This document shows, piece after piece, positions 6,231-38,643 of a stretch of 40,189 nt of DNA. Both the position numbers and the translations under genes were made by a program. The number at the start of each line of letters is the position of its first letter. Position 1 is the first letter of the stretch. This DNA is from an uncultured Deferribacteres bacterium (GTDB lineage: Bacteria > Zhuqueibacterota > Zhuqueibacteria > Zhuqueibacterales > Geothermadaptataceae): contig CAXHAT010000058.1 of the NCBI GenBank assembly GCA_964014485.1, forward strand, positions 1-40,189, in the 5' to 3' direction. The notes beneath the pieces were generated by a model, which saw only the letters and a program-made list of their open reading frames with translations, made no database searches and had not been told where the DNA came from.

Positions 6231-6395
6231 TTGCTCGTTTGAGAATCCGTTCTCAGGAAGGAAGCGCCGCGTTCATGCGTGCGCCTTTTTTGAACACATT
6301 AGGGTAGTACGTCTTGGTCGTGTTCTTTCTTTGTGATCTTTTTGAAGATACCTTTACATAATACAGTCACAGCGAAAAAATGCAGACAAGAAGTC

Positions 6396-6591: not shown

Positions 6592-6609
6592 ACCTGTTCC
6601 GAAAAATTC

Positions 6610-6677
6610 CGCAACGGGGGAAGCATACGAGCCCTCGGGATTCGAGACCTGGACTCGGATTGCGATACCCCGTTGCG
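6610..6677. repeat. REP-like imperfect hairpin
   Basis: CGCAACGGGG ... CCCCGTTGCG perfect 10-bp arms with partial inner pairing. Confidence 0.5.
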
Positions 6678-6749
6678 TTTATGCTTTTTTGCGTCGCTTC
6701 AATAAGATCATCTTGGCGTAAAGATATGAAAATCAGACTATGGGGTGCA

Positions 6750-6791
6750 TAGGACGAATCTTGCAAAATCTAGGACAAACTTGACATTTTG
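6750..6791. promoter_or_regulatory. Candidate AraC-type tandem binding site
   Basis: TAGGACGAA (6750) and TAGGACAAA (6771), 21 bp apart, the second abutting TTGACA, in the divergent region upstream of an AraC-output HTCS. Confidence 0.35.
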
Positions 6792-6866
6792 TGCCTGGAT
6801 TCAGGATTTTGGCTTTTTTTGCCTTCACTACCTGACACTTTTTAAAGCAACTTCGCGAGTGCCTCA

Positions 6867-6972
6867 AAAAATCCAAAATTGTCATGCTGTAAGCATCTTT
6901 TTCGATCTAACCCTTGAACTCTTGGGGAAATCTGTGCCGGACGCTAACAAAGATTCTTACAGCATGACAATT
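6867..6972. repeat. REP-like palindromic element (GTCAT...ATGAC type); related copy at 26923-27027
   Basis: AATTGTCATGCTGTAAGCATCTTT / AAAGATTCTTACAGCATGACAATT inverted arms (23/24); about 35 nt of the left part is nearly identical to 26923-26957. Confidence 0.85.
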
Positions 6973-7209
6973 CGAGGCATCCTCGCCAAGTCTAAACGGC
7001 AATTTGTAAAAAGTGTCAGGCAGTGAATTTTTTGCCGAGGGTCAGACGGCGAGTGCGAACTTTACGGAAAGTTCTTTTTCTCAAGATTCGTTTCGATTGC
7101 AATTTTCTTTGTCAATGATCAATGTAGATTTTTTTCAGCCGCATACTTCCGCGAATCAGGTAGTTTTTCTAAAACGATTCGCTCGCCGCAGAAAAGGAGC
7201 CCGACAATC

Positions 7210-10200: not shown

Positions 10201-11310
10201 GGTATTTCTCCAGAACGCTTGCCGCATATTTTTGATCGTTTTTATCAGGTGGATGATTCCAACACGCGCGTTCATGAAGGAAGCGGCGTTGGCTTGGCGC
10301 TGGTGAAAGAGTTGGTGGATCTGCACAGCGGCGATATTTCCGTGCGAAGCGAACTGGGCGCGGGGACGACGTTTACGGTTCTTTTGCCGTTTGGAAAAGC
10401 GCATCTGAAGCCGGGGGAGATCATTGAAGAATCTTCCAATTCTCTGCCGTCAGCCGCCGATGTTGAGCTTTTAGCAAATGCTGATCGGCGCCCAAAACCA
10501 ACAAAGATCAAATCCGGGAGCCAAAAGCTAACAGCCAATAGCCAAGAGATCATTCTGCTCATCGAAGACAACCCCGACATGCGCGCGTTTATTCGGCGTC
10601 ATCTGGAGTCGGCTTATCAAATCATCGAAGCCTGCGACGGTGAAAAAGGCGTTGCGAAAGCAATTGAAAACGTCCCCGACCTGGTGATCAGCGATGTTAT
10701 GATGCCTAAGATGGACGGCTTCGAAGTGTGCGCAGCTTTGAAAAATGATGAGAGAACCAGCCACATCCCAGTGATTCTCTTGACGGCGAAAGCGGAGCAG
10801 GAAAACAAGATCGCCGGTCTTGAGATCGGGGCGGATGATTATTTGCTCAAACCGTTCAATGCAAAAGAGCTGCTCACGCGAGTTGGAAACTTGATTACTT
10901 TGCGGCGAAAGTTGCGAGAGCGCTTTGGCGGCGCAACGACACTGAAGCCGAGCGAAATTGCGCAGACCTCAAAAGATAGAGCGTTCCTCGAACGTGCATT
11001 GGACGTCGTGGAAAAAAATCTAACGAATGAAGAATTTGATGTGGAAACGCTCGCCGCTGAATTGACGATGAGCTATACGCAATTGCATCGTAAACTCAAA
11101 GCGCTTACCAATCAGAGCAGCAAGCAGTTCATTCTCTCCATCCGCCTGCAGCGCGCCGCCGATCTTTTGAAAAAGAACGCCGCGACTATAAGCGAAATCG
11201 CATACCAGACCGGTTTCGGCGATCCGAGTTATTTTACGCGACGTTTCAAAAAACATTTTGGCTGTTCACCATCGGTATACAGCCAAAAAGAAAAAGCTCG
11301 GCAACTATAA
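7210..11310 (+). CDS. Hybrid two-component sensor/regulator (beta-propeller sensor, Y_Y_Y, TM, HisKA, HATPase, REC, AraC HTH)
   Basis: 1366 aa; YTNLPEGDYRFRVRAKN, PPWSRTWW TM entry, FFANISHEFRTPLTLI, NLISNALKFT, DSGVGI, GSGVGL, DLVISDVMMPKMDG, GFGDPSYFTRRFKKHFG. Confidence 0.95.
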   Translation: MVFPSSTSAFRTLFLFLSLVCADLAQGRQGRPLITNYTSKDFNAFHQNWISVQDQRGVMFFGNGSGVLEFDGVDWRLTPLQNGKKAYSLTVDREGRIFVGSLREFGYLAADSVGMFRYVSLVDKISEAETGGVGMWGAYSTSRGVYFTHRSGVYRWTGESLVRLKPESRAHPGFVVRDTLYIRQWGRGLTRVEDDSLHLLPGGELFAEKRIVVMTPYSDSRILAITNTEEFYIFDGASFQPFIAEAATLLGKNQFYSTGTTLPNGNFALAAHDLGIVIIDRQGKLIAKVDKQNGLLNNTVRHLFVDSDGGLWAALEIGLSRIEIPSPFKYYDEQSGINGNVLDIAGRQNTLFLGTGTGVAFFDEAEDKFRQVPGIAGSTRRLLSFRSPQSGQTFLLAANRNGVYEIENKLARKIAMPVSRDNFSHSLKQSALDSSLVFIGLDKGLAALRHNGEKWLDLGKVFDVGAAVLNIAEPRKGELWFGVQESRVVRLRYSTQDSESNLRAIDVAYFSPEHGLPYGKILAFQGADKPWFLTRSGAYAFDDSSQFFFRDNTFPGFFENVSARTKIADNYILEETQGGDIWLGDGTAIGMARRQGNGVFQIEKTPYMRFSEFAVNSMFSDENEIAWFGGLEGVIRYDGKIKGDDATRFSALVRRVFVNDDSLIFGGNFGEDESKARSAKNILNYEDHNVLFECAATTYEAPSHIQYQYFLEGFENRWSQWTKESKRNYTNLPEGDYRFRVRAKNIYARTSSEDVFVFSILPPWSRTWWAYGVYILLFVSAFYGVLRYEMSRQRFKHNAEIERLQAEQQQREAEKLKELDRMKSQFFANISHEFRTPLTLILGPVESLLNRFSDKKSQGELGIMQRNAGRLLRLINQLLDLSKLEAGKMTLRARRMDFLAYLKGVVMAFESLALSKSITLQVQAREKRIELYFDPDKIEKIFSNLISNALKFTPEGGRIVVQCLVNSRQFSASGDRPLDGVLNTEHSLLITVRDSGVGISPERLPHIFDRFYQVDDSNTRVHEGSGVGLALVKELVDLHSGDISVRSELGAGTTFTVLLPFGKAHLKPGEIIEESSNSLPSAADVELLANADRRPKPTKIKSGSQKLTANSQEIILLIEDNPDMRAFIRRHLESAYQIIEACDGEKGVAKAIENVPDLVISDVMMPKMDGFEVCAALKNDERTSHIPVILLTAKAEQENKIAGLEIGADDYLLKPFNAKELLTRVGNLITLRRKLRERFGGATTLKPSEIAQTSKDRAFLERALDVVEKNLTNEEFDVETLAAELTMSYTQLHRKLKALTNQSSKQFILSIRLQRAADLLKKNAATISEIAYQTGFGDPSYFTRRFKKHFGCSPSVYSQKEKARQL
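10090..10186. repeat. In-frame inverted heptamer array inside the HATPase domain
   Basis: GTTCAGT GTTTAGT GAATAGT CGTCAGT TTTCAGC ... GCTAAAT ACCGAGC ACTCTTT ACTAATC ACTGTTC; encodes VQCLVNSRQFSA...LNTEHSLLITV. Confidence 0.75.
10519..10546. repeat. In-frame heptamer tandem in the HATPase-REC linker
   Basis: AGCCAAA AGCTAAC AGCCAAT AGCCAAG; encodes SQKLTANSQ. Confidence 0.7.
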
Positions 11311-11374
11311 CCATCCCCAACAATTCAGCCCAATGGGCGCTCTTCAAAGTTTAACGGACGATCCTTGATCCCAC

Positions 11375-13081
11375 TCAAGGTCGATCGATCAGAGTAATTC
11401 GACGAATAACGGTCGGGCTGATTAGCGAATTTGGCGTATTGTGCGGAACGACGTCGTTAATGTACAAAAACTTACCGGTTGGATCGGCGGCGAGATCGTT
11501 GGGCAACGAGAACGTCGCGTTCAGCGCTGCATCGTCTCGGCGACCGCGCTGTCCTGTTCCCGCCAGCAGCGAAACAGTCCCGTCGAGAGCAACGCGATAA
11601 ATCTGATTCGCGCTGCGCCCGACAACGTAAAATTCATCGTTCGCGTATGTGATGTGCCCGTTGTTGCCGCCGGTAATGCTTGCAAACAATGTCACCACAC
11701 GATTTGTATCCACTTTGATCACGCTGCCGTTGCCAAAATTTGCAACGTAGAGATTGCCGAGCGTATCGATGGCGACGCCGTTCGGACAATTAAACAGAAC
11801 GCTCGACGCATACGGCGTGGAAACGCCTTCCGGCGTCACCTTGCGGATGGTGTTGTTGCCGCAATTGGCGACGTAGAGATTGTCTTCTCGGTCGAAGATC
11901 AGGCCGACCGGATTTACAATGCCTTGCGTCACAAAAGTCGAGACCGCGCCGTCCGTCGAAACGCGACTGATGCTGTTCCCGGCAATGTTTGACTGAAAAA
12001 ACTCACCTTTTGAATTAATGGCGTTGCCTGAGGCGCCGTTAAAACCGGCGGCAAACACGCTCACATCACCGTCCGGCGTAATTTTCCAGACTTTGTCGCC
12101 AGGAGTCCCGCCGAGCGAAACGCCGAAATCGGCAGTGTAAACATTGCCGTCCGCATCGACGCACATTCCGCCTGAACCAGCCGGAATTTCTCCGGTAATC
12201 GTATGCACCAGATTTGTGGTCTCTAACCTGAACTCGCCCGAAGGTGCGGACAGAGCATTGCGAATCGCGATCACGCCGTCGGCGACGGAGAGCACGAAAA
12301 CGCGATATTTTGCGTCGCCGGTTATTGGCGCGCCGTCCACGTCCTTTAACTCCGGGGGGAAACGATGCTGAATTGCCTTGCCCGTTTTCGCAACCGGCGC
12401 ATAATTCCCCAACGTCACTGCATCAGCCGCAGCGAGATTGAAAGCTCCCGCTCTTTCAGAAAGCGTTAGCATCACGCGATACTCTGAAATTTTATCTTCC
12501 TGTGCAGCGGCGTCAAACGAAATGCTTAAATCACTGGCGTCGCCGCTATTTTCGATGTCAGCCACGTCGAGATTCGCAGCCGCGACGGCGGTTGAACTGA
12601 GCGTTATGATTTGCGATGCAGCCGAAAGCGCGTTGACGCTTGCGACGGTTCCGTCCGCGACGCTGAGGACGAAAACGCGATAAGCGGTTTCTTCCGTGAT
12701 TGTTTCACCGTCCTTGTCCTTCGCATTTGCGGGCAGCGTCGAACTAAGGTCAACGCCGGTTTTTGCGATGGCGGTATAATTGTCCGACGTCAACGCGTTG
12801 GCCGTTTCCAGTGTAAAGCCGCTCAAATCTTCCGATTTGATCACGATGACGCGATATTCTTTCACGCCGCTTTCGTCAGCCGCTTTACTGAACGCAACTT
12901 GCAAGTCCTGACCGTTGCCGCTATTGCCCGTATCCGCAGCAGAAAGGTTGGTGATTTTTCCGGCTGTCACTTCATTGCCGCCTGGGTCCGAAATATTATC
13001 GCCGCCGCAACGGATGTGGGCAAAAAACAATAACGCCAAGAGCGCAGCCGTCGTCAGACGTTTTCGGTAAATTTGTGTCAT
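11375..13081 (-). CDS. Probable lipoprotein: two copies of a ~120-aa FnIII/Ig-like domain plus NHL/SMP-30-type beta-propeller
   Basis: ATG at 13081 with AGGA RBS preferred over the ORF-track TTG; hydrophobic leader ending HIR-C; NHL-like NPVGLIFDREDNLYVAN and CPNGVAIDTLGNLYVAN. Confidence 0.85.
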   Translation of the reverse strand: MTQIYRKRLTTAALLALLFFAHIRCGGDNISDPGGNEVTAGKITNLSAADTGNSGNGQDLQVAFSKAADESGVKEYRVIVIKSEDLSGFTLETANALTSDNYTAIAKTGVDLSSTLPANAKDKDGETITEETAYRVFVLSVADGTVASVNALSAASQIITLSSTAVAAANLDVADIENSGDASDLSISFDAAAQEDKISEYRVMLTLSERAGAFNLAAADAVTLGNYAPVAKTGKAIQHRFPPELKDVDGAPITGDAKYRVFVLSVADGVIAIRNALSAPSGEFRLETTNLVHTITGEIPAGSGGMCVDADGNVYTADFGVSLGGTPGDKVWKITPDGDVSVFAAGFNGASGNAINSKGEFFQSNIAGNSISRVSTDGAVSTFVTQGIVNPVGLIFDREDNLYVANCGNNTIRKVTPEGVSTPYASSVLFNCPNGVAIDTLGNLYVANFGNGSVIKVDTNRVVTLFASITGGNNGHITYANDEFYVVGRSANQIYRVALDGTVSLLAGTGQRGRRDDAALNATFSLPNDLAADPTGKFLYINDVVPHNTPNSLISPTVIRRITLIDRP

Positions 13082-13123
13082 GAGTTTTTCCTGAGTAATC
13101 AATGAAATAGAATTTCTGCTATT

Positions 13124-13312
13124 CTATTTTCGCCTTCTGATCAGCAGCGCCGCATTCAGCAGGAAGCCGAGCCCCGCGACTATCTCAAGAGCGATCACGA
13201 ACCCGGATTTTTCCGTTGTGGTCAGAAAAACCAGGTCATACACGCCCACGAACAGCATGAGAATCCCGGCGACAATTGTCAGTATCAAAAATTGTTTTCC
13301 TTGATGATTCAT
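13124..13312 (-). CDS. Small two-TM membrane protein
   Basis: 62 aa, GGGAG RBS, two hydrophobic helices, basic C-terminus, co-oriented within the operon. Confidence 0.7.
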   Translation of the reverse strand: MNHQGKQFLILTIVAGILMLFVGVYDLVFLTTTEKSGFVIALEIVAGLGFLLNAALLIRRRK

Positions 13313-13378
13313 TGGTCTCCCTTGTTTGTAGATGCGCCGTACACTGAAAAGGCGATCGACCGAAGCCCAATTCCTTCG

Positions 13379-14962
13379 TCAGAACCGCTTGAATTCCAGC
13401 GGCATAGTGAACACAATGGCGTTATCGTATAACTGCGTCACCTGCGCCGTTTCCGCCTGTACATTTTGCGCGCGAAAATGCAAGCCGATCACGTGTTTAG
13501 GGTTGATGTGGTTCATGATAACGTCACGATTTGCAGCGCTGATCAGCGTGTTGAAAGTGGGGAGAAAAACAACGTCAATCTCTTCATCTTTCAAGTTGAA
13601 ATTTTCGAAGTTCGCGTCGGAATATTGAACGTCGCCAAGATGGAGCAATTTCTTGCCGCCGAGTTGAACGAGATAACCAAAATTTTCAACGCTGGAGAAG
13701 TCGTTGCCAAATTGATTGAAATGGCGCAAGTGCAGCACCGAAAGCTCTATGCCGTTGACCGTCGTATCGACGCGCGTGCGAAAGGCCGGGTTGACTTCCC
13801 AAATCTGACTGGCGCCGCTCAAGACTTGCGGCGGGGCGATGTAGGCGGCGTTTGGATTGGCGTTAAAAAATGCGCGCACCGATTGCGGATTGAAATGATC
13901 GCCGTGGTTGTGCGTCGTCATCGCCAATTCAATCCGCCCGTAAGGCTGCTGTGCGTTTTCGATTTTCGTCGTTTCGGCGCCGGAGAGCACAATCCAGAAT
14001 GTGTTGGTGCGATGCAAACCGTCGATGATAATTTGCAGGCCGGAACTATCGGCCAAAAGCACGCCGTTATTGCCGAGATAAGTCACCTTGACCGTGGTAA
14101 AGGCCAGTGTAATTTCCACCGACGGCTCGGCAAGCCGGTTCGTGTCCGTGATGACGCCGTCGGCAATGCTGAGCACGAAAATCCGGTAAGACACGTTTTC
14201 ACGAACTGGGGCGCCGTCACTGTCCAGTGCGTCCGTCGCCAAAACCGTCTCAAGATCGCCGCCGGTTTTGGCGACGACGGTAAAATTGCCGTCCGCCAAG
14301 GCGTTGGCTTTTTCCAGACTAAAATCAGCGGCGGCTCCGGCCTTGACCACGATAATGCGGTACGCCTCCACCCTGTCTTCGTTCTCCGCACGCTGAAACG
14401 CAACGTGCAAATCTTCGCCATCGCCTTTATTGGTGACGTCATCGACAAAGAGCTCGGAAACGGCGTCGGTTACGGAAATGAGCGTGATTTCCAGAGAAGC
14501 GGCGGACAACGCGTTGGTTGTCGCATTGACGCCGTCCGCCACCGACAAAACGAAAACGCGGTAAGGCGTTTCGTTGACGATGGGATCGCCGTCGCGGTCT
14601 CGTGCGCCGGCGGGCAGCGTCAGTGTGATGTCTTGCCCGGTTTTTGGGGCGGCGGTGTAATTAGCCGCGGGCAATGCTTCCGCTGCGCTCAGATTAAAAG
14701 ATGAGAAGTTGGAAGTTTTTGAAACGATGACGCGATACGAACCGACGCCGCTCTCGTCCGCCGCTTTTGAGAACGAGATTTGCAAATCCTGCCCGTCACG
14801 TAAATTACCGACGTCTGCCACCGCCAGGTTTGACACGGCCGGCGCCGCGACCTCCGTTGGAATTGTGGGAGATGAATTATTGCAATTTGAAATAAAAAAA
14901 AGCGCATTTGCGAGCAGAAAAAGCGTTGCAATTTTTGCGTACCTGAATTGTTTTGAATGCAT
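13379..14962 (-). CDS. Probable lipoprotein: two copies of the same ~120-aa domain plus MBL-fold metallo-hydrolase
   Basis: Start MHSKQF at 14962 with GAGG/GGAG RBS (the longer ORF runs into a MITE); leader ending ISN-C; THNHGDH (HxHxDH), HLGD and GLH motifs. Confidence 0.88.
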   Translation of the reverse strand: MHSKQFRYAKIATLFLLANALFFISNCNNSSPTIPTEVAAPAVSNLAVADVGNLRDGQDLQISFSKAADESGVGSYRVIVSKTSNFSSFNLSAAEALPAANYTAAPKTGQDITLTLPAGARDRDGDPIVNETPYRVFVLSVADGVNATTNALSAASLEITLISVTDAVSELFVDDVTNKGDGEDLHVAFQRAENEDRVEAYRIIVVKAGAAADFSLEKANALADGNFTVVAKTGGDLETVLATDALDSDGAPVRENVSYRIFVLSIADGVITDTNRLAEPSVEITLAFTTVKVTYLGNNGVLLADSSGLQIIIDGLHRTNTFWIVLSGAETTKIENAQQPYGRIELAMTTHNHGDHFNPQSVRAFFNANPNAAYIAPPQVLSGASQIWEVNPAFRTRVDTTVNGIELSVLHLRHFNQFGNDFSSVENFGYLVQLGGKKLLHLGDVQYSDANFENFNLKDEEIDVVFLPTFNTLISAANRDVIMNHINPKHVIGLHFRAQNVQAETAQVTQLYDNAIVFTMPLEFKRF

Positions 14963-14999
14963 TGCTCCAACCTCATGTTTTTTGTCTTTTATCTTGAAT

Positions 15000-15232
15000 C
15001 TGATGTTACGCGCTTGCCAATAATGCATGCTGTAGATTGGTTTTCAGCCAAATCGAATATTGCAATTGGGAATGAAGCTTTCTGACCCTAAAGCGTTTTT
15101 CAAGTTCATTCCTGCGGAGGCGGGAATCCAGAAAATAATGCACTGCCTCTGGATTCCTGCCTCCGCAGGAATGACTCGTAGAGCAAAGCTTTTGGTCAAA
15201 TGCCATATCATTGGTTAGCCGCGTAACATCAG
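15000..15232. mobile_element. MITE-like element, 13-bp TIRs, 6-bp target duplication, internal dRS3/REP-like palindrome
   Basis: TTGAAT|CTGATGTTACGCG...CGCGTAACATCAG|TTGAAT; internal TCATTCCTGCGGAGGCGGGAATCCAGA / TCTGGATTCCTGCCTCCGCAGGAATGA (15106-15174). Confidence 0.85.
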
Positions 15233-15261
15233 TTGAATTTTTTCTTGGCGACGAACTGGCG

Positions 15262-17208
15262 TCATTTGGTGAAAACCATTTTCTTGCTCAGGACGAACTC
15301 TTCCCCTCCCGCTTTCCGCTCCGAAACCCGCAGCCGATAAACATAAACGCCGCTTGGAACGCGACCGCCGGAATCGCTGCGCCCGTCCCAAACGAGTCTG
15401 TGCTCACCTGCATCATTCTGAACATTTGACGCCAAAGTTCGAATCGTGCGCCCCGCGAGATCGAAAACGGCGATGCTGACAAGAGCCTGACCGCCGAGGG
15501 TGTAGCGAATCGTGGTTTTGGGATTAAAAGGATTCGGATAGTTCTGCGCCAGCGAGAATCCGCCCGGCGTGAGGAGACCTGGCTCATCGACCGAGGTGGT
15601 CGCGTCTTCCGTCACAAGCAAAGTCTGGTCGGCTGCGACGGCGCTTCTGATTTCCGATAACCCGGAAGGCCAATCGATGATGAGCGAATCGACCGTTTCG
15701 GCGTCGCCGAGGCCGAAATGCACCTCCAGACTATTTTGCCCGTTGAAGGTGTTCTGCGCCGAAATTTCGCGCATTTGCCAAACTTCCGCGCCGCCAATTT
15801 GCGCCAGCAGGCGAAAACGCGCCCCAATCGCCGATGCGTTCGAAACGGTTCCAACCGCCTTGATTTTGAGCCAATGATTGCCGTTCTCGAGATCGTTGCG
15901 ATAGAGAAAGTTTGGCCTGCCGCCCTGGTTAGAGATCACATTGGCGACGAAAAGATCGAGATCGCCGTCATCGTCATAATCCCCGGCGGTCGCGCCCCAG
16001 CTTTCGTCGGCGTCGGTTGCGAGTACGCCGGACGAAGGACGCGTAAACGTTCCATCCCCGTTGTTTCGGTAAAATTGATTAGGTTGGGTGCGCGCCGCGT
16101 TGGTGACAAACACGTCAAGATCGCCGTCATTATCAAAATCGCCCCAAACATTGCCGAGGGAACGGCCGCCGTCGGTCGTCAGCGGTGCTGAGCTCGCCTT
16201 GGTGTATTCGCCGTCATCGTTGCGATATAAATTGTTCGGCATCCCGCTCGGTCTGCCGCCCCACCAATTCGTTAAAAATGCGTCGAGATCGCCGTCGTTG
16301 TCATAGTCGATCCAGTTCCAAACCTGGCCGTCCACGCGATCCGTCGCAATGGGACGCGTGGTCATTTTTTTGAGCCGCGCCGCGCCTTCTTCCGAAAACA
16401 TGTTTTGAAACAAAAAATCAGGAGCGGTGACGCCGTTTGCCGGGCCGCTGCCAATAAACAAATCGAGATCGCCGTCCAGATCGAAATCCGACCAAGTCGC
16501 GACGGTATAGGGCGCGAGTCCTTGCGTCGCGGGCGAATCGGTGATGCGCGCAAAACTGCCGTCGCCCTTATTTCTAAAAAAATAGTTGGCCACGGGCGTT
16601 CCCGAGATGAAGCCGTTCGGGTGGGTCACGAAAAGATCGACGAAACCGTCCTCATCATAGTCGGCCCAAGTGCAGGCCCAACCGTTGATGACGCTCACGC
16701 CAAAAGCGGAGAACGTTGTGATTGTGCTGAACGCGCCGTTGCTGTCATTGCGCAGCAATTGTGAAGGCGAGCCGGCCAGGAAACAATCGAGGTCTCCGTC
16801 ATTATCGTAATCCGCCCAACTATTGCCGAACGAAAATCGCGTAACCAACGCTCCGGAAAGAATGCGTGTGAAAGAGCCGCCGTCGTTGTTGCGATAAAGA
16901 TAGTTCAGATTGACGCTGCGGTTGCTGACAAAAAGATCGAGATCGCCGTCGGCGTCATAGTCCACCCAAGACGCGCCGGATGAGTTGCCAACGTTGGAAG
17001 CAACAGCGCCGGTTGTCACTCGGACGAAGTTTTGAGAACTGAGAATTTCCGGGAAGACGAGCGCGAGAAAAGAAGCGATTAACAGAAATTTGAAATTGAA
17101 TGAGCGCAAAGCACTCAAGTAAAAGTGGAAACGTTTTTTTCGCGGCAGGAAAACCGCGGAAAACAGGAAGGGCAGAAAATTCTGCTGAAAAATGTCATTG
17201 ATCCGCAT
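15262..17208 (-). CDS. Secreted FG-GAP/VCBS-repeat protein with ASPIC/UnbV domain and FlgD/T9SS-type C-terminal domain (CRTAC1-like)
   Basis: Seven W-x-D-[YF]-DxDGxxD-type repeats; SAIGAR...QNSLEVHFGLG..VDSLIIDWPSG; QNYPNPFNP C-terminal domain. ATG 17208 has a GAGGA RBS but the start is uncertain. Confidence 0.9.
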   Translation of the reverse strand: MRINDIFQQNFLPFLFSAVFLPRKKRFHFYLSALRSFNFKFLLIASFLALVFPEILSSQNFVRVTTGAVASNVGNSSGASWVDYDADGDLDLFVSNRSVNLNYLYRNNDGGSFTRILSGALVTRFSFGNSWADYDNDGDLDCFLAGSPSQLLRNDSNGAFSTITTFSAFGVSVINGWACTWADYDEDGFVDLFVTHPNGFISGTPVANYFFRNKGDGSFARITDSPATQGLAPYTVATWSDFDLDGDLDLFIGSGPANGVTAPDFLFQNMFSEEGAARLKKMTTRPIATDRVDGQVWNWIDYDNDGDLDAFLTNWWGGRPSGMPNNLYRNDDGEYTKASSAPLTTDGGRSLGNVWGDFDNDGDLDVFVTNAARTQPNQFYRNNGDGTFTRPSSGVLATDADESWGATAGDYDDDGDLDLFVANVISNQGGRPNFLYRNDLENGNHWLKIKAVGTVSNASAIGARFRLLAQIGGAEVWQMREISAQNTFNGQNSLEVHFGLGDAETVDSLIIDWPSGLSEIRSAVAADQTLLVTEDATTSVDEPGLLTPGGFSLAQNYPNPFNPKTTIRYTLGGQALVSIAVFDLAGRTIRTLASNVQNDAGEHRLVWDGRSDSGGRVPSGVYVYRLRVSERKAGGEEFVLSKKMVFTK

Positions 17209-31108: not shown

Positions 31109-34100
31109 ATGATGCGATGGATTATTGGGTCGAGCCTGAAAGGCCGGCTCGTCGTGACTGCTGCTGCTGCACTGCTGATTGTTTTCGGCTTCACGCAGCT
31201 TAGCAAAATGCCGATGGACGCCTTGCCGGAGTTCTCGCGGCCTTATGTGGAAGTTCAGACGGAAGCGCTCGGTCTATCCGCCCAGGAAGTGGAAGCGATG
31301 GTCACAACGCCGATGGAGGCGGACATGCTCAACGGCACGCCCTGGGCTGAAGAAATCCGTTCCGTGTCGATACCAGGCATGTCGTCGATCATTCTCACTT
31401 TCGAAAGAGGAACGGATATTATGCGCGCCCGGCAGGTTGTCACGGAGCGTATGACAGAAATCTTTGCATTGCCGCAGGTTTCGACCCCGCCGACGATGGT
31501 CGATCCGGTCGCCTCAGCCAGCCGATGTCTGGAGATCGGTGTAACCTCGAACACATTGTCTCTGATTGATTTGTCAGTGCTCGCGCGCTGGACGATTGCG
31601 CCCAAACTGATGGGTTTAGATGGCGTCGCAAATGTCTCCATCTGGGGCGAACGCCAGCGGCAGCTTCAGGTGCAGGTCGATCCCGAAAACTTGCGTGCAC
31701 AAGGGCTGACCCTACAGCAAGTCATCAATACCGCCGGCAACTCGCTGTGGTCCTCACCGTTGAGTTATCTTGAAGCCTCAACGCCTGGCACCGGCGGCTG
31801 GATTGAGACACCGAATCAGAGACTAACCGTCAGACATGTTTTACCGATCCAAACGGCGGCGGACTTGGCCCAGGTACCCATCGAAGGCGCGCCCTCGAAG
31901 CGTCTCGGTGATATTGCCACTGTCGTGGAAGACCACCAACCGCTGATCGGTGACGCTTTTGTCAATGATGAAGCTTCACTCATGCTGGTCGTCGAAAAAT
32001 TTCCCTGGGCAAATACCAAAGATGTAACAGGCGAAGTCGAATCGGCGTTGACGTCGTTGAGCCACGGCTTGCCTGGCGTGGAAATGGACCCCACGCTTTT
32101 TCGGCCGGCAACATTCATCGAGCAGGCGGTCGGAAACCTGACCTCGACATTTCTCATCAGCGGCATTCTCCTGATTGTCGCGCTTTTTGCCTTTCTCTTC
32201 AACTGGCGCACGGCGTTGATCAGCACCGTCACGGTTTTGACGTCTGCAATTGTAGCGGGCGGCGTGCTCAACGCTATGGGAATCGAGCTCAACCTGATGA
32301 TCATCGCAGGGTTGATGATCGCCCTCGCCGCGCTGATTGATGATGCGATCGTCGGTATCGAAAACATTGCCCGGCGCTTACGTGAGACGAGTGCGGAAGA
32401 CAGCGGCAAGTCGACGGCAACCATTCTTTATGAAGCTGTGGCAGAGATGCGTAGTCCTCTTCTCTACGCAACGGCGATTATGGTACTGGCTGTTCTGCCG
32501 GTTATGTTCCTCCAAGGCGTATCCGGAGAATTCTTCCAGCCGGTCGCGACCGGCTACTTCCTGGCACTGCTGGCTTCGCTGGCGGTTGCGTTGACTGTGA
32601 CGCCAGCCCTGAGCCTGCTACTTCTTCGCCAAGGCTCCTTGCAAAGCGGAGATTCTCCGATTTCCGGCATATTGCGCGGCATTCATAGCGGACTGTTCGG
32701 GTGGGCGTCGCGCGTACCAAAACCTGCCTTTGCGGCAGTCTGCGTTGTCGCGCTCGTCGGCGTCATCTCAACAGCATTTCTCCGTCAGGAATCTCTGCTG
32801 CCGGATTTAAAGGAAACCAATCTTGTGGTTCGCATGGCAGGCAATCCGGCTGCTTCTCATCCTGCAATGACCCGGGTAACAACGCTAGCCAGCCGCGAGC
32901 TCCGCGGTATTCCGGGCGTCCTCAATGTCAGCGCCCACGTCGGGCGAGCGATCATGTCGGATAAACACACCAATATCAACGCCAGCGACATTTGGGTCAG
33001 TATCGATCCAAACGCCGATTATGATGCGACCGTTGCCGCGGTCAAGGAAACGGTTTCCGGCTACCCCGGCCTGTCGCCTGAAGTATTGACCTATCGTCAG
33101 GCGCAAGTCAGAGAAGAGCTTACGGGAACCGGCGAATCCCTGGTCGTACGCGTTTACGGCGAAGACTTCGACGTCATCCGTCAAAAGGCCGATGAAGTGC
33201 AGAAGATGATGGCGGGCGTCAGCGGTATTGTCGATCCGAAAGTGCAGTATCCCAAGCAAATGCCAACTGTGGAAATCGAGGTCGATATCGAAAGGGCCAA
33301 ACAAATAGGCGTCAAGCCGGGTGACGTCCGCCGGGCCGCCGCCGCTCTGGTGGGAGGCATCACCGTAGGCAGTCTTTTTGAAGAACAGAAAGTATTCGAT
33401 GTGGTGGTGTGGGGCATTCCTGATGTTCGCCACAATATAAGCAATATTCAAAATCTTTTGATCGACAAGCCGGACGGCGGGCATGTACGTTTGAGAGACG
33501 TTGCCGATGTACGTATCGCACCTTCCGCCGCAGAAATCCATCGCGATGCAGTGGCGCGCCGGATAGACGTCGTTGCGGATGTAGACGGTCGCGATCTCGC
33601 CGCTATTGCGGCCGATATCGAAAACGGCGTCGACGGTATCAGCTTCCCGCTCGAATACCGCGCGGAGATCATGGGTGAATATGCCGAGCGCCTTGCCGCC
33701 CAGAACCGCGTTTTGGCATTTGCGATTACTGCCGCAATCGGCATTTTCTTGCTCCTGCAAGTTTTCTTCGGAAGCTGGCGACTTGCGACCGCCGTTTTCC
33801 TGACCCTGCCGATGGCGCTTGCCGGAAGCGCTGTGGCGGCATTCCTGAGCACCGGAGGCCTAGTGTCATTCGGCTCGATTGTCGGATTTGTCGCAGTCTT
33901 TGGCATAGCTGTACGCAACAGTATCACGCTAGTCAATCGCTACCGGCAGCTCGAGAGTGAAGGTGAGGAATTCGGCGCTGAGCTCGTACAACGCGCCACA
34001 AGGGAACGGTCTGGGCCGATCTTGATGACGGCGTTCGCAACCGCACTCATCTTTCTACCCTTTGCATTTGCCGGCAGCATCGCCGGTCTTGAAATCGCGC

Positions 34101-34315
34101 AGCCGCTAGCCGTTGTCGTTTTGGGCGGATTGGTTACTGCGACGCCGCTCACCTTAATGGGCGTTCCTGCCATATACCTGATGTTTGGCGAAGCCCGCGA
34201 AGAAGACCTTGACCTGATTCCGGTCACGGTTATTACCGAGGAAGAAGTTCCCGGCCCCGCCGCAAGCGCTTTTGGAGAAGAAGCTGAAGAAGAATCAACA
34301 AAAGTTAGTCAATAA
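31109..34315 (+). CDS. RND permease subunit 1, CusA/CzcA-like
   Basis: MMRWII after AGGAGG; MPMDALPEF..VEVQT..GLSAQEVE; TM4 IDDAIVGIEN; GIAVRNSI; ERSGPILMTA; PLAVVVLGGL. Confidence 0.93.
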   Translation: MMRWIIGSSLKGRLVVTAAAALLIVFGFTQLSKMPMDALPEFSRPYVEVQTEALGLSAQEVEAMVTTPMEADMLNGTPWAEEIRSVSIPGMSSIILTFERGTDIMRARQVVTERMTEIFALPQVSTPPTMVDPVASASRCLEIGVTSNTLSLIDLSVLARWTIAPKLMGLDGVANVSIWGERQRQLQVQVDPENLRAQGLTLQQVINTAGNSLWSSPLSYLEASTPGTGGWIETPNQRLTVRHVLPIQTAADLAQVPIEGAPSKRLGDIATVVEDHQPLIGDAFVNDEASLMLVVEKFPWANTKDVTGEVESALTSLSHGLPGVEMDPTLFRPATFIEQAVGNLTSTFLISGILLIVALFAFLFNWRTALISTVTVLTSAIVAGGVLNAMGIELNLMIIAGLMIALAALIDDAIVGIENIARRLRETSAEDSGKSTATILYEAVAEMRSPLLYATAIMVLAVLPVMFLQGVSGEFFQPVATGYFLALLASLAVALTVTPALSLLLLRQGSLQSGDSPISGILRGIHSGLFGWASRVPKPAFAAVCVVALVGVISTAFLRQESLLPDLKETNLVVRMAGNPAASHPAMTRVTTLASRELRGIPGVLNVSAHVGRAIMSDKHTNINASDIWVSIDPNADYDATVAAVKETVSGYPGLSPEVLTYRQAQVREELTGTGESLVVRVYGEDFDVIRQKADEVQKMMAGVSGIVDPKVQYPKQMPTVEIEVDIERAKQIGVKPGDVRRAAAALVGGITVGSLFEEQKVFDVVVWGIPDVRHNISNIQNLLIDKPDGGHVRLRDVADVRIAPSAAEIHRDAVARRIDVVADVDGRDLAAIAADIENGVDGISFPLEYRAEIMGEYAERLAAQNRVLAFAITAAIGIFLLLQVFFGSWRLATAVFLTLPMALAGSAVAAFLSTGGLVSFGSIVGFVAVFGIAVRNSITLVNRYRQLESEGEEFGAELVQRATRERSGPILMTAFATALIFLPFAFAGSIAGLEIAQPLAVVVLGGLVTATPLTLMGVPAIYLMFGEAREEDLDLIPVTVITEEEVPGPAASAFGEEAEEESTKVSQ

Positions 34316-34328: not shown

Positions 34329-34757
34329 ATGCAAACGATTCTCCGTAATCTTTTTACAGCACTGGTTGTCTGCGGCCTGATGTTTTTCGGATGCCAGGGG
34401 CATGGGCACGATGACCACGGCGTACATCCCGCCGAAGTCGAGCCTATTGCAGGGTCTGATCTCAGCAAAATCACTTTGACCGAAAGGGCGATGCAGCGCC
34501 TCGACGTCAAAACCGACGAGGTTCGCGAGCAGGCAGGGAAAAAAACTGTTCCCTACGCCTCGTTGATATACGACCCGCAGGGCCAGACCTGGGTCTATAC
34601 CAGTCCTCAAGCTCGAACCTTTGTACGAGCTAAAGTTGACGTCGACGAAATAAGAGGCGATACGGCCTACTTGAAGGACGGCCCGCCTGCCGGCACAGTC
34701 GTCGCGACAGTAGCTGTGGCGGAAATCTACGGGACGGAATTCGAGGTAGGACATTAA
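34329..34757 (+). CDS. His-rich lipoprotein resembling a truncated RND periplasmic adaptor
   Basis: ATG after AAGGAGG; lipobox MFFG-C then QGHGHDDHGVH; ITLTERAMQRLDVKT joined directly to VPYASLIY..WVY..TFVRAKV..DGPPAGTVVATVAVAEIYG; 142 aa. Confidence 0.8.
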   Translation: MQTILRNLFTALVVCGLMFFGCQGHGHDDHGVHPAEVEPIAGSDLSKITLTERAMQRLDVKTDEVREQAGKKTVPYASLIYDPQGQTWVYTSPQARTFVRAKVDVDEIRGDTAYLKDGPPAGTVVATVAVAEIYGTEFEVGH

Positions 34758-34761
34758 AGAA

Positions 34762-34840
34762 GGGGCAAAGGTGCAAAGTGACATAGGAGCAGAGTATTGA
34801 ATCTTTGCTCCTATGATCCTTTGCCGCTTTGTTCCTTTGA
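34762..34840. repeat. Inverted octamer array overlapping the four-helix-bundle 3' end
   Basis: GGGGCAAA GGTGCAAA GTGACATA GGAGCAGA G ... CTTTGCTC CTATGATC CTTTGCCG CTTTGTTC CTTTGA. Confidence 0.88.
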
Positions 34841-35191
34841 TTTCAACTTTCGAATGAGGCTGCTGAGCATTCTTTCGAGTTCACGGCTGGCTTCGAAGGT
34901 TGAATCAAAGTCAGTCCTACTTAAAAATTCCAGGTTTTTGGCAATTTCCAGTTGCGTTTGAAATTCGAAAAGCGATCCCATCGCGATTTGAAGAAATCGG
35001 AGATAATCTTTTGTTGTCTGTCGACCAAAACCTTCCGCGATGTTACTCGGCACGGAAACAGCCGACCGCCTTAACTGGTTGGTCAATCCGTACCGTTCTT
35101 CTCGCGGAAACGCCTGCGACAATCGATAAATATTCGTCACAAGCTGCATGGATTTTTGCCAGACAATGAGTTCACGAAAAGTTTTGATCAT
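34811..35191 (-). CDS. Four-helix-bundle protein (TIGR02436 / 23S rRNA IVS protein family)
   Basis: FRELIVWQKSM, FPREERYGLTNQLRRSAVSVPSNIAEGFGR, FLQIAMGSLFEFQTQLEIA; ATG 35191 has a GGGAG RBS. Confidence 0.93.
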   Translation of the reverse strand: MIKTFRELIVWQKSMQLVTNIYRLSQAFPREERYGLTNQLRRSAVSVPSNIAEGFGRQTTKDYLRFLQIAMGSLFEFQTQLEIAKNLEFLSRTDFDSTFEASRELERMLSSLIRKLKSKEQSGKGS

Positions 35192-35278
35192 GACGCTTCT
35201 CCCGCTCAACATCCCGCATAATTGAATTGATCAGGCTTAACTAAAGAAATCATGTTTTTCATCCAACAAAGATAATCC

Positions 35279-35364
35279 AAAGGAGCAAAACGATTTGCGA
35301 AGCGTGCGAACTTTTCACCTAAGCCTTTGCCGCTCTGGCCCTTTGCTCCTTTGTCCCTTTGTAC
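35279..35364. repeat. Octamer array on the other flank of the four-helix-bundle gene
   Basis: AAAGGAGCAAA ... CTTTGCCG CTCTGGCC CTTTGCTC CTTTGTCC CTTTGTAC. Confidence 0.85.
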
Positions 35365-35386
35365 CCAAAAACCGCGAGGTTTTAAA

Positions 35387-38300
35387 ATGTTACGTTGGAT
35401 TGTAGGATCGAGCCTGAAGTTCAGGTATCTCGTCCTTGCCGGTGCGCTCGGATTGATGTACTTCGGCGTCAGGCAGCTTGAAAAAATGCCCGTGGACGTC
35501 TTTCCCGAATTCGCCCCGCCGATGGTGGAGATTCAGACGATCAGCCTCGGGCTTTCTCCGGAAGAAGTCGAATCACTGGTTACCGTACCGCTGGAGCATG
35601 TGCTGGCCGGAATCCCCGGCATGACCGTCATGCGCTCCCGGTCGGTTCCGCAGTTGTCAGCAATCAAAATGTATTTCGAGCGTGACACCGATTTGATGCT
35701 GGCGCGGCAGTTGGTGAACGAGCGCCTGGCAACCGTCACCCCGACGTTACCGCCTTGGGCCAGCCCGCCGATTCTTCTGCCGCCGCTGTCGGCGACAAGC
35801 CGGATGATAAAAATCGGTATTTCGTCGAAAGAGCGATCCGTCATCGATTTGTCGATGATCACCTACTGGACGATTCAGCAGCGTATCAAGCGCGTCCCCG
35901 GCGTGGCCAACGTCGCCATCTGGGGCGAACGCATTGAAATGTTGCAAGTGAACGTTGTCCCGGACAAAATGAAAGAGCACAAGGTGACGCTGGATGAAGT
36001 CATGGATGCGACGGCCGACGCTCTCGACGTCGGCTTGTTCCGCTGGTCAGACGGGCACTACGTCGGCTCCGGCGGTTGGGTGGATACCCCGAACCAGCGG
36101 TTGCAAGTCCGCCATATCCTGCCTATGGCCAAGGATTATGAAAACGTCACGGCGGACGAGCTGGGCAATGTGCCGCTTGCGATCAGGAATGGCCGGCAGC
36201 TCTATCTCAAGGACGTCGCCGAAGTCGTGATCGGCCACCAGCCGTTGATTGGCGACGGCATCATCAACGACGACGTCGGCCTGTTGCTCATTGTGGAAAA
36301 ATTCCCCTGGGGCAACACCCTGCAGGTGACCAAGGGCGTTGAAGAAGCCATGGCAGCGGTAAAACCCGGGCTGCCCCCGGATATCGAGATCGACACGGCC
36401 ATCTTCAGGCCCGCCACATTCATCGAGACGGCCATAAGCAACCTCAACACCGCGCTGCTCATCTCCGCGGTTCTGGTGATTATGGTGCTGTTTGCCTTTC
36501 TCTATGAGTGGCGCACGGCGCTGATCAGTTGCACGGCGATTCCCCTGTCGCTCATGACCGCTATGATTGTGCTTTATCTGCAAGGTGCAATCATCAACAC
36601 GATGATTTTAGCAGGGCTTATCATCGCCCTGGGAGCGGTGGTCGACGACGCCATCGTCGACGTTGAAAACATCGTGCGCCGCCTGCGCCAATTTCGCAAG
36701 GAAGGCAAAAAGATTTCACTTGGCAGAACGATACTGATGGCGTCGATAGAGGTGCGCCACGCCATCATCTTCTCAACGTTGATCGAGATTGCGGCTTTGT
36801 TGCCGGTCTTTTTTATGGAAGGTCTGTCCGGCGCCTTTTTCAAGCCGCTTGCCATGGCCTTTTCGATTGCAATTGTCGCCTCCACGCTTGTGGCGTTGAC
36901 CGTTACGCCGGCGATGGCCTTTCTGTTGTTTCGCAATGCGCCGTTGGAGAAGCGCGAGTCCCCGCTCACGCGTCGGCTGCATAGTGGATACAACAAGCTG
37001 CTCGCCAAAATTGTCGATAAGCCGCGCACCGCTTATGCTACTGTCGCCGTCGTTGTGTTGGCCGGCGTCTTGATCTGGCCGCGGCTGGGACAGTCTCTGC
37101 TGCCGGACTTCAAGGAAAGGGATTTCCTGATGCACTGGCTGACCAAACCCGCCACCTCCTTGCAGGAGATGCGGCGGAGCACTATCGACAGCGGCAAGGA
37201 ACTGCTCGCTCTCCCCGGCATTCTCAATTTCGGCGACCACATCGGCCAGGCGCTGATCATGGATGAAGTCGTCGGAATATACTTTGCCGAGCACTGGGTC
37301 AGCGTCGATCCCGCGGTGGATTATGACGAGGCCCTGGCCAGTATCCAGGAAGTGGTCGACGGCTATCCTGGAATTTATCGCGATGTTCAGACCTATCTCA
37401 AAGAGCGCATACGCGAAGTGCTGACCGGCACCTCGGAGGCCATCGTGGTGCGCATCTTTGGCAGCGAGTTGGAAATGCTGGAGGAAAAAGCGCATGACGT
37501 CAAGGACGCGCTCGAAAACATACCAGGCATTATCGACTTGCACATTTCGTTTCAGGAACAGATTCCGCATATCGAAGTTAAGGTCGACCTCGAGAAGGCG
37601 CAAAAATACGGTCTCAAACCTGGTGACATTCGCCGGACCGCGACGACAATGATCGCCGGAGAGGAAGCTGGTGATATTCATGTTGCCAACCGCACTTACG
37701 ACGTCAACGTCTGGAGCATCCCGGCGGCGCGCAACAGCCTGACCGACGTCAAGGAAATGTTGATCGACGTGCCCGGCGGCGGCCATGTGCAATTACAGGA
37801 CGTGGCCAGCGTTGAAGTTAAACCGACGCCCAATGTCGTGTATCGCGAACATCTCAAGCGGCGCATGGACGTCGGCGGCAATGTGCGCGGGCGCGATCTT
37901 GGCGAAGTCTATCGTGACGTCGAGGCTGCGCTGGCGACTGTAGATTTTCCACAGGAATACTACCCGGTGCTGCTGGGAGAGTACACGGAGAGACAGGCTG
38001 CGCAAGATAAAATGCTCATCTTTGCCGTCATTGCCGCGATCGCCATTTTCCTGCTCTTGTACACATCATTCAAGAGCGGGCGTCTGGCAACAATTTCCTT
38101 TGTCCTCTTGCCCTCGGCCCTGGTTGGCGGCGTGATCGCGGCGTGGATGGGCGACGGGGTCATCTCGCTCGGCTCGATGGTGGGCTTTCTCACCGTGCTG
38201 GGGATTTCCGCACGCAACGGCATTTTGATGATCAACCACTTTCAACAACTCGAAGATCAGGAAGGCATGAGATTTGGGCCTGAGCTGGTGCTTCGTGGTG

Positions 38301-38554
38301 CGAAAGAACGATTGGCGCCTATCTTGATGACGGCGACGACAACTGGCCTGGCTTTGATTCCGCTTGTTGTCGCCGGTCAGATTCCCGGTAACGAGATTGA
38401 GCATCCGATGGCGGTTGTGATTCTCGGCGGATTGATTACTTCAACGCTGATCAACCTGTTCGTCGTCCCCTCGCTCTACCTGAAATTCGGCGAACGCAAG
38501 GCTCCGGATCCCGCGTTTCAACTACAATTCGCCACAAGCGTTTTTAGTAAATAG
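35387..38554 (+). CDS. RND permease subunit 2, CusA/CzcA-like
   Basis: Start MLRWIV at 35387 (the ORF-track extension is repeat-derived); MPVDVFPEF, GLSPEEVESLVTVPLE, VVDDAIVDVEN, GISARNGI, ERLAPILMTA, PMAVVILGGL. Confidence 0.95.
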   Translation: MLRWIVGSSLKFRYLVLAGALGLMYFGVRQLEKMPVDVFPEFAPPMVEIQTISLGLSPEEVESLVTVPLEHVLAGIPGMTVMRSRSVPQLSAIKMYFERDTDLMLARQLVNERLATVTPTLPPWASPPILLPPLSATSRMIKIGISSKERSVIDLSMITYWTIQQRIKRVPGVANVAIWGERIEMLQVNVVPDKMKEHKVTLDEVMDATADALDVGLFRWSDGHYVGSGGWVDTPNQRLQVRHILPMAKDYENVTADELGNVPLAIRNGRQLYLKDVAEVVIGHQPLIGDGIINDDVGLLLIVEKFPWGNTLQVTKGVEEAMAAVKPGLPPDIEIDTAIFRPATFIETAISNLNTALLISAVLVIMVLFAFLYEWRTALISCTAIPLSLMTAMIVLYLQGAIINTMILAGLIIALGAVVDDAIVDVENIVRRLRQFRKEGKKISLGRTILMASIEVRHAIIFSTLIEIAALLPVFFMEGLSGAFFKPLAMAFSIAIVASTLVALTVTPAMAFLLFRNAPLEKRESPLTRRLHSGYNKLLAKIVDKPRTAYATVAVVVLAGVLIWPRLGQSLLPDFKERDFLMHWLTKPATSLQEMRRSTIDSGKELLALPGILNFGDHIGQALIMDEVVGIYFAEHWVSVDPAVDYDEALASIQEVVDGYPGIYRDVQTYLKERIREVLTGTSEAIVVRIFGSELEMLEEKAHDVKDALENIPGIIDLHISFQEQIPHIEVKVDLEKAQKYGLKPGDIRRTATTMIAGEEAGDIHVANRTYDVNVWSIPAARNSLTDVKEMLIDVPGGGHVQLQDVASVEVKPTPNVVYREHLKRRMDVGGNVRGRDLGEVYRDVEAALATVDFPQEYYPVLLGEYTERQAAQDKMLIFAVIAAIAIFLLLYTSFKSGRLATISFVLLPSALVGGVIAAWMGDGVISLGSMVGFLTVLGISARNGILMINHFQQLEDQEGMRFGPELVLRGAKERLAPILMTATTTGLALIPLVVAGQIPGNEIEHPMAVVILGGLITSTLINLFVVPSLYLKFGERKAPDPAFQLQFATSVFSK

Positions 38555-38643
38555 AAGTGACAAAGGGGCAAAGGCACAAAGTTTTTCTACGAATACTGCA
38601 TCAAAACACTCTGTGCCTTTGATCCTTTGCGCCTTTGCCCCTT
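38555..38643. repeat. Third, gene-less copy of the inverted octamer array
   Basis: AAGTGACA AAGGGGCA AAGGCACA AAG ... CTCTGTGC CTTTGATC CTTTGCGC CTTTGCCC CTT. Confidence 0.88.

What the first reader, a model, noticed from the sequence alone, without database searches (positions are those of the whole stretch)
34762..38643. Four-helix-bundle gene bracketed by inverted octamer arrays, with an empty copy nearby: candidate repeat-guided mobile cassette
Seen: an antisense TIGR02436-type gene interrupts the RND operon. Both flanks carry arrays of an 8-nt unit (xxxCAAAG / CTTTGxxx), its last codons and stop (KEQSGKGS*) lie in the array, and a third hairpin of the same unit at 38555-38643 has no gene. 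Known: this family has no assigned function and shares its fold with Avd, the nucleic-acid-binding accessory protein of diversity-generating retroelements. Inference: the arrays are the insertion, excision or recognition sites of a small transposase-less cassette, and the protein may bind these hairpins.
Basis: partly seen in the sequence, partly recalled or inferred. Interest (0 to 1): 0.8.

Follow-up and report, generated by a model that had tools for sequence, protein, structure and literature searches.

The report
Octamer-armed four-helix-bundle mobile gene cassette
A small gene of unknown function, wrapped in mirror-image runs of an 8-base repeat, sits inside an efflux-pump operon at a spot where related bacteria have no such gene, and because the repeat type follows the protein's lineage across phyla, the protein likely recognises its own repeat and travels with it as a mobile cassette.

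Summary
Observation confirmed, with one refinement: there are four arms (A-B-gene-A-B), not two. The TIGR02436/PF05635 gene (34811-35191, minus) is absent from all 9 complete orthologous adaptor-RND2 junctions. Six of them hold a gene-less heptamer hairpin, the arm type of a different family clade. Among homologues at 57% identity or more, 58 of 70 period calls are 8-nt, in several phyla; below 57%, 69 of 89 are 7-nt. The genome holds 42 CAAAG-octamer arrays (controls 0-6), most without a gene, five as hairpins in a prophage. Helix-4 Arg110 occurs in 52 of 78 octamer and 1 of 101 heptamer loci, but the independent-pair test on supported branches is not significant. Best reading (0.55): a transposase-less cassette whose protein, likely a pentamer, binds its own arms and whose hairpins persist as solos. 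Binding, excision and the mobilising enzyme are untested, and no empty allele or circle was seen in shallow contigs. Against: some array-rich genomes lack the cognate gene. The scan has noted this class before on other DNA (181 notes, mostly heptamer, one 8-mer). I found no paper linking gene and repeats.

The parts
34329..34757 (+). Host adaptor-like gene of the RND operon; ends ...GH* at the same place in all 9 orthologues compared
34759..34794 (+). Arm A1: about 4 units xxxCAAAG, starting right after the adaptor stop codon
34803..34842 (+). Arm B1: 5 units CTTTGxxx; pairs with A1 (z -8.07); on the minus strand it encodes KEQSGKGS* of the four-helix-bundle gene
34811..35191 (-). TIGR02436/PF05635 four-helix-bundle gene (ORF open from 35212), GC 0.44 against 0.55-0.57 for its neighbours; octamer clade, with R110 and R114
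35199..35203 (-). GGGAG, a Shine-Dalgarno-like word upstream of ATG 35191
   Evidence: sequence
35264..35290 (+). Arm A2: weak, decayed CAAAG units; pairs with B2 in the local fold
35297..35303 (+). GCGAAGC in the loop of the A2/B2 hairpin; the same word is the centre of the loop palindrome in several prophage solo hairpins
35325..35364 (+). Arm B2: 5 units CTTTGxxx, ending 22 nt before the RND2 start; in the whole-cassette fold it pairs with A1 and puts the gene in the loop (z -5.44)
35387..38554 (+). Host RND permease 2 (PF00873)
38555..38643 (.). Solo, gene-less A-loop-B hairpin of the same unit, starting at the RND2 stop; not seen by eye at this junction in 10 orthologous stretches

Best explanation
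This is a horizontally acquired, transposase-less cassette, a PF05635 gene between inverted arrays of an 8-nt unit, whose protein likely forms a pentamer that likely binds its own arms, so that gene and repeat type would travel and evolve together. Shown: gain or loss at this junction, many unrelated insertion sites, dispersed solo hairpins, and a unit that tracks protein lineage. Inferred: the pentamer reads a 4-5-unit arm (roughly one unit per subunit) through a helix-4 surface (R110/R114). A host enzyme, not the cassette, would supply the chemistry. The A-B-gene-A-B form would interconvert with a solo A-B hairpin by recombination between the two direct-repeat hairpins. Because A-B is symmetric, entry could be in either direction, which would explain the rare antisense orientation here. 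Solo hairpins would be gene-less derivatives that can outlive the gene.
For: Gene absent at 9 of 9 complete orthologous junctions. A close gene is found in only 3 of 166 other genomes of the phylum, while 60-67% relatives occur in Bacteroidota, Planctomycetota and Ignavibacteriota. The 53 R110 loci fall into 28 distinct neighbour pairs. Period tracks the tree: 19 changes against a shuffled mean of 52.6, 0 of 500 as low. The 7 family genes of this one genome carry different units by eye, so the host does not set the unit. Second, independent pair: the TGCTGG-heptamer clade gene is in 7 of 41 genomes, all among the 17 that have that array and none of the 24 without; its flanks are TGCTGG-type in 5 of 5 loci read. 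G049 has the octamer gene with R110/R114 and the most CAAAG arrays (131). R110 predicted 8-nt flanks in 11 of 11 new loci. Arms have 4-5 units in 33 of 53 upstream and 40 of 53 downstream cases. The model matches pentameric Xcc0516 (TM 0.82, rmsd 0.7) and Avd 4DWL (TM 0.72). Avd binds a stem-loop with all five protomers (10.1101/2023.10.23.563531, passages).
Against: No binding, circle or excision was observed. Laid contigs show no joint skipping the cassette, though they are shallow and from 2 studies. Array-rich genomes without a detected cognate gene exist: G048 (116 CAAAG hits), G011 (72 TGCTGG hits, 100% complete) and G024. G036 has the gene but only 2 hits. Residue covariation is not significant on supported branches (6 pairs; 1.7:0 and 2.1:0). 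N-terminal positions 11, 15 and 22 also covary, so linkage of gene ends to flanks could produce it. 26 of 78 octamer loci lack R110. The unit-count rule is loose (101 of 530 shuffled flanks give 3 or more units), and 17 of 53 loci share one site. No sigma-70-like promoter was found for the antisense gene (0 found, 0.7 expected). No catalytic activity is known for the family.
Confidence: 0.55

Rival explanations
1. Passive passenger. The hairpins are host REP-like elements spread by some other enzyme (for example an HUH/RAYT-type transposase). The gene, once caught between arms, moves only by homologous recombination into hairpins of the same unit, and the protein does nothing to the repeats.
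For: Solo hairpins abound without a detected cognate gene. The genome has 7 Y1_Tnp matches. A GxxExxY gene of this genome also has inverted short-unit arms by eye. No sense-strand folding bias: sense folds better in 10, antisense in 18, which fits a DNA-level element. Co-inheritance alone gives unit-lineage tracking.
Against: The same octamer vocabulary is kept around proteins only about 60% identical in different phyla. Only 2 other small ORFs of 2022 are bracketed. Helix-4 residues top the list of 276 tests on 21 unsupported pairs (R110 9.1:0, K114 10.5:0). The family is strongly conserved.
Confidence: 0.22
2. Regulator with its sites. The protein is a laterally transferred RNA-binding regulator, the arms around the gene are autoregulatory sites, and the solo hairpins at operon junctions are a regulon that tunes translation or decay of downstream genes.
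For: The first arm starts within 11 nt of the upstream stop in 19 of 28 co-directional cases. The gene is co-directional with both neighbours in 101 of 142 loci. A repeat-binding protein as the mobile element was proposed for TAACTGA repeats (PMC4679880, passage).
Against: The same junction carries different unit families, or none, in different relatives. Sites include prophage structural-gene gaps. No mRNA-strand bias in folding or G-U pairs (21 against 29 A-C). Here the gene is antisense.
Confidence: 0.13
3. mRNA intervening sequence. As in 23S rRNA IVS elements, the outer arms pair in the operon transcript and RNase III cuts the unit out, which makes it a tolerated, near-neutral insert.
For: The whole-cassette fold pairs the outer arms with the gene in the loop (z -5.44). 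Same protein family as S23p, and RNase III excises the Coxiella IVS (PMC4990558, passages).
Against: It explains tolerance, not spread or unit-lineage tracking. No sense-strand advantage genome-wide. Cutting would split the RND mRNA.
Confidence: 0.1

Closest known systems
ORF-bearing intervening sequences of 23S rRNA (S23p; Coxiella burnetii, Leptospira; PMC4990558, passages seen)
   Same: Same protein family (PF05635/TIGR02436); ORF enclosed by complementary ends that can form a long stem; sporadic, horizontally acquired.
   Different: Lies between protein genes, not in rRNA; arms are degenerate tandem octamers; four arms; antisense; many gene-less solo copies in the genome.
Paired intergenic 7/8-nt repeat arrays: Xanthomonas GGGAATC (PMC4692102), Geobacter metallireducens paired four-octamer sites (PMC2700814), Beggiatoaceae TAACTGA (PMC4679880); passages seen
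   Same: Inverted pairs of short-unit arrays between aligned genes, with the G-rich arm just after a stop codon (here the 5' arm has G>C in 59 of 64 hairpins) and about four or five units per arm.
   Different: The passages I saw treat them as G-quadruplex, regulator-binding or translational elements and name no partner gene. Here a PF05635 gene clade carries the same unit as its arms.
Avd of diversity-generating retroelements (PDB 4DWL, 8UB7; bioRxiv 10.1101/2023.10.23.563531, passages seen)
   Same: Same fold (TM 0.72); Avd is a pentamer that binds a stem-loop using all five protomers.
   Different: 12% identity; below the Avd cut-offs (24.2 of 80 bits; 29.9 of 40 bits); no reverse transcriptase on this contig.
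REP/REPIN elements with RAYT transposases, and MITEs (recalled, not from a call)
   Same: Short intergenic hairpins that come and go between relatives, with a rare gene-bearing form and many gene-less forms.
   Different: The cargo gene has no HUH or DDE transposase domain; arms are tandem arrays rather than single palindromes; no target duplication is evident by inspection.

Membership tests
TIGR02436 / PF05635 four-helix-bundle protein | HMM score above the curated cut-off | tested here: met
   138.9 against 24 bits; 140.6 against 33.8 bits
[quoted passage not shown]
   pLDDT 94.5, four helices; 2GSC TM 0.82, rmsd 0.7
TIGR02436 / PF05635 four-helix-bundle protein | Homopentamer | not tested
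   Inferred from 49% identity to the five-chain 2GSC structure
23S rRNA intervening sequence (S23p type) | Located inside an rRNA gene | tested here: not met
   Between adaptor and RND2 genes; no rRNA family match
23S rRNA intervening sequence (S23p type) | Complementary ends forming a stem around the ORF | tested here: met
   Predicted only: outer arms pair, z -5.44
23S rRNA intervening sequence (S23p type) | Excised from RNA by RNase III | not testable with these tools
   No RNA holder listed
DGR Avd accessory gene | Avd HMM cut-off, and an adjacent RT with template repeat | tested here: not met
   24.2 of 80 and 29.9 of 40 bits; none of 6 RVT_1 matches is on C58
Insertion sequence / MITE | Encoded transposase (IS) or no ORF (MITE) | tested here: not met
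   The only ORF with a family match is PF05635
Insertion sequence / MITE | Target-site duplication | tested here: inconclusive
   None evident by inspection of the junction; no near-identical empty allele available; not tested systematically
REP/REPIN-RAYT | HUH (Y1) transposase flanked by its REPs | tested here: not met
   None of 7 Y1_Tnp matches is on C58; the flanked gene is PF05635. Mobilisation in trans was not tested.
Mobile cassette (functional class) | Presence/absence at orthologous sites and occupation of unrelated sites | tested here: met
   0 of 9 orthologous junctions; 28 neighbour pairs among 53 loci
Mobile cassette (functional class) | Excised or circular intermediate, or precise empty allele in the same population | tested here: inconclusive
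   No joint in contigs of 4 runs at depth about 2-6

The most novel reading that the evidence does not exclude
PF05635 proteins are the specificity factors of an undescribed class of self-spreading elements. Each protein clade is a pentameric reader tuned, through helix-4 residues such as R110/R114 versus K114, to a 7- or 8-nt unit. It seeds its own repeat at operon junctions genome-wide, possibly by recruiting a host reverse transcriptase as Avd does. This would be the source of the long-unexplained excess of 7-8-nt intergenic repeats in bacteria.
Probability: 0.3. Interest if true: 0.9.

Novelty: new variant of a known kind. Interest (0 to 1): 0.68.

Why it matters
It gives a very large orphan protein family a concrete candidate ligand, and gives the unexplained paired 7/8-nt repeats of many bacteria a candidate partner gene. 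The octamer clade against its heptamer neighbours offers a direct swap experiment (unit length against two helix-4 residues). If the protein drives spread, it would be a mobile-element class with no transposase of its own, and a small, potentially retunable repeat-reading ring.

Tried and rejected
Sequencing runs: no RNA holder listed. Contigs of 4 DNA runs showed no joint skipping the cassette and are too shallow to count against excision. Prophage C55 relatives, wanted to date its hairpins: none in viral contigs or in 166 other phylum genomes. Rfam: two chance microRNA-hairpin hits far below cut-off. Promoter and terminator scan: none found, about as expected by chance, so a simple intrinsic terminator is not supported. 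mRNA-strand selection on hairpins: not seen. The formal independent-pair test was inconclusive twice (2 starred pairs; 6 starred pairs). In one search R110 ranked second, behind position 51. The idea that four-arm cassettes are preferentially antisense was rejected: 21 of 24 AB-gene-AB loci are clearly co-directional, and the window is the only antisense-in-operon case among 53 (the script classed the window itself as A-gene-AB). The invariant terminal AG is forced by my register rule and is not used as evidence. The careful tree did not finish, so one search is the quick tree. The window's own row was ambiguous with 150-nt flanks and 8-nt with 200-nt flanks. The first genome-wide bracket test was too strict and missed the window's gene. 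No complex prediction was run. Geobacter supplements: 12 of 19 files searched, no hits, 7 unseen. The DGR preprint's supplement, which names the RNA-contacting Avd residues, was not seen, so R110/R114 could not be mapped onto the Avd RNA face.
Full report
Anatomy. On the + strand the operon runs RND1 (31112-34315), adaptor-like gene (34329-34757), a 632-nt junction, RND2 (35387-38554), then a porin. In the junction lie arm A1 (34759-34794, xxxCAAAG units, starting at the adaptor stop), arm B1 (34803-34842, CTTTGxxx), the antisense TIGR02436/PF05635 gene (34811-35191), a weak arm A2 (35264-35290) and arm B2 (35325-35364). The gene's last codons are read from B1. Each flank folds as a hairpin (z -8.07 and -3.69), and the whole unit can fold with its outer arms paired (z -5.44). 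A gene-less hairpin starts at the RND2 stop (38555-38643; z -4.35). The gene is AT-richer than its neighbours (GC 0.44 against 0.55-0.57).

Not chance, and not unique. The genome has 42 arrays with this core, against 0-6 for each of 9 rearranged cores. Five full hairpins fill gene gaps of contig C55, a prophage by its terminase, portal, capsid and Gam genes. A general scan found 108 heptamer and 97 octamer arrays against 5 and 5 after shuffling, forming 64 hairpins. Their 5' arm has G>C in 59, and the first arm starts within 11 nt of the upstream stop in 19 of 28 co-directional gaps. The sense strand folds better in only 10 of 28. By a loose rule made after seeing the data, 56 of the 64 use units that also flank a resident PF05635 gene. 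The genome has 9 PF05635 matches, 7 above cut-off. By eye all 7 have arrays on at least one side, each with a different unit, while the 2 weak matches look like DGR Avd genes without arrays. Under one strict rule, 3 of the 7 and only 2 other of 2022 small ORFs are bracketed on both sides.

Filled versus empty. Ten orthologous operon stretches were fetched. Nine include the whole junction; L010 starts 134 nt before RND2. None has the gene, and junctions are 126-415 nt long. Six carry a gene-less TGCTGG-type heptamer hairpin just after the same GH* stop (two with a weak statistical arm, read by eye), one carries another heptamer, and two have none. An RND2 tree places an empty junction (G001) as sister to the rest, on a long outgroup branch, and leaves the window unresolved among TGCTGG-bearing clades. 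Independent colonisation and replacement therefore cannot be told apart. The TGCTGG unit is the arm of another PF05635 clade (5 of 5 loci). That gene is in 7 of 41 genomes, all among the 17 with the array, though all 17 are one family and so not independent. This genome has no TGCTGG doublet: the junction carries the repeat family resident in each host.

The unit follows the protein. From homologous loci were scored. At 57% identity or more, 58 are 8-nt, 12 are 7-nt and 8 uncalled. Below 57%, 19 are 8-nt, 69 are 7-nt, 1 is 9-nt and 13 uncalled. On the quick tree of 165 distinct proteins the 8-nt label needs 19 changes against 52.6 shuffled. The window falls in a branch (SH-aLRT 92, not starred) of 69 rows with 55 octamer and 5 heptamer calls, spanning Bacteroidota, Planctomycetota, Ignavibacteriota and Cloacimonadota. 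In its own phylum only 3 of 166 other genomes have a match at E<=1e-33, and one of these has 7-nt flanks. CAAAG triplets occur in 27 of 167 phylum genomes. The top counts are G049 (131; has the gene), G048 (116; gene not found), this genome (33), G147 (12) and G103 (11), and G036 has the gene with only 2 (30 of 47 family matches were fetched and part of the output was cut). Arrays therefore also exist without a detected cognate gene.

A candidate specificity surface. Arg110 was the column most associated with period. In 92 further loci (67 usable, 59 counted), all 11 with R110 were 8-nt, while those without were 37 7-nt and 11 8-nt. Over 179 non-redundant rows, R110 is in 52 of 78 octamer and 1 of 101 heptamer loci, and K114 in 74 of 101 heptamer and 4 of 78 octamer loci. 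On a tree built without helix 4, the formal test has only 6 supported pairs and is not significant. On 21 unsupported pairs R110 (9.1:0) and K114 (10.5:0) lead 276 tests, followed by positions 117, 11, 113 and 121. This is a lead only: R110 may be a single-origin clade marker, and gene ends may be linked to flanks. Arms have 4-5 units in 33 of 53 and 40 of 53 cases, which suits a pentamer, but the rule is loose and 17 loci share one site. The model matches Xcc0516 (TM 0.82) and Avd (TM 0.72).

Mechanism. I commit to a transposase-less cassette whose pentamer binds its own arms, with the chemistry borrowed from the host (0.55). Presence/absence, site diversity (28 neighbour pairs among 53 loci), solos and lineage tracking are shown. 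Binding, pop-out between the two direct-repeat hairpins and two-way re-entry are inferred. The gene is co-directional with both neighbours in 101 of 142 loci and antisense to both in 7, so this copy is unusual. Rivals are a passive passenger of host hairpins (0.22), a regulator with its sites (0.13) and an RNase III-excised mRNA insert (0.10).

Literature. I saw passages only, of PMC4990558, PMC4692102, PMC2700814 (supplements 12 of 19), PMC4679880, PMC3936711, PMC10910872, PMC8700078 and bioRxiv 10.1101/2023.10.23.563531 (supplement not seen). They describe the IVS, the paired repeats and Avd separately. Eight full-text searches listed no paper linking PF05635 genes to flanking 7/8-nt arrays; most subscription journals are not covered. 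REP/RAYT and MITE features are recalled. The scan itself holds 181 notes on the class, including an 8-mer Flavobacterium case and a note that the unit follows lineage. These are unchecked and not counted as support. A word search of the scan for period-linked residues returned nothing.

Verdict. Real feature; a new variant of the ORF-bearing intervening-sequence kind, outside rRNA; interest 0.68; categorical novelty is possible (0.3) if the protein proves to read and spread its own repeat.

Noticed in passing
window 2235-2283 (minus-strand ORF 1960-4422) and 265-310: A heptamer hairpin (AACTGTG / CTGTTCA type) lies in frame inside a secreted-looking protein and reads VNSEQSTVNSSQITVHS just before the C-terminal domain. 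A near-duplicate of this C-terminal region with the same array lies at 200-720.
   Followed up: no
window 4458-4495: A further gene-less heptamer hairpin (CAGTAAT ... ACTGGTTACTG) fills the gap between two co-directional minus-strand genes.
   Followed up: no
L246 (G000:C55) 2658-16735: A prophage with a Mu Gam-like gene has CAAAG hairpins at five gene gaps plus heptamer arrays. Several loops hold the palindrome GCGGAGCGAAGCTCCGC. No relatives were found.
   Followed up: partly
L244 (G000:C359) about 1360-1420 and 1880-1910: A GxxExxY (TIGR04256) gene is bracketed by inverted arms of a roughly 9-nt unit (GACGGGATT / AATCCCGTC), by eye: an unrelated small gene with the same cassette layout.
   Followed up: no
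L247 (G000:C463) 492-1170: A roughly 160-aa ORF with no PHROGs match is bracketed on both sides by full CAAAG hairpins, one of only two non-PF05635 small ORFs so flanked.
   Followed up: partly
L002, L003, L009 adaptor-RND2 junctions: REP-doublet-like palindromic inserts (CCCCTTGTGGG ... CCCACAAGGGG) are nested in the loop of the heptamer hairpin, so the loops collect further elements.
   Followed up: no
L224-L235, L241-L243: A second CAAAG-containing octamer family starting GCCACAAAG forms gene-less hairpins in several phylum genomes and may have a different partner gene.
   Followed up: no
G000:C135 7245-8777 and G000:C343 849-1400: Two Avd-like genes, one beside a reverse transcriptase and one followed by a template-repeat-like stretch, suggest diversity-generating retroelements in this genome.
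   Followed up: no
L009 (G014:C3) between RND1 and the adaptor: About 4 kb of extra genes, starting with an ABC ATPase-like ORF, are inserted at the RND1-adaptor junction.
   Followed up: no
window 35387-38554: RND2 is closer to genomes of the sister family (79-81%) than to the one same-family orthologue (74%), which hints that the operon itself moved.
   Followed up: partly
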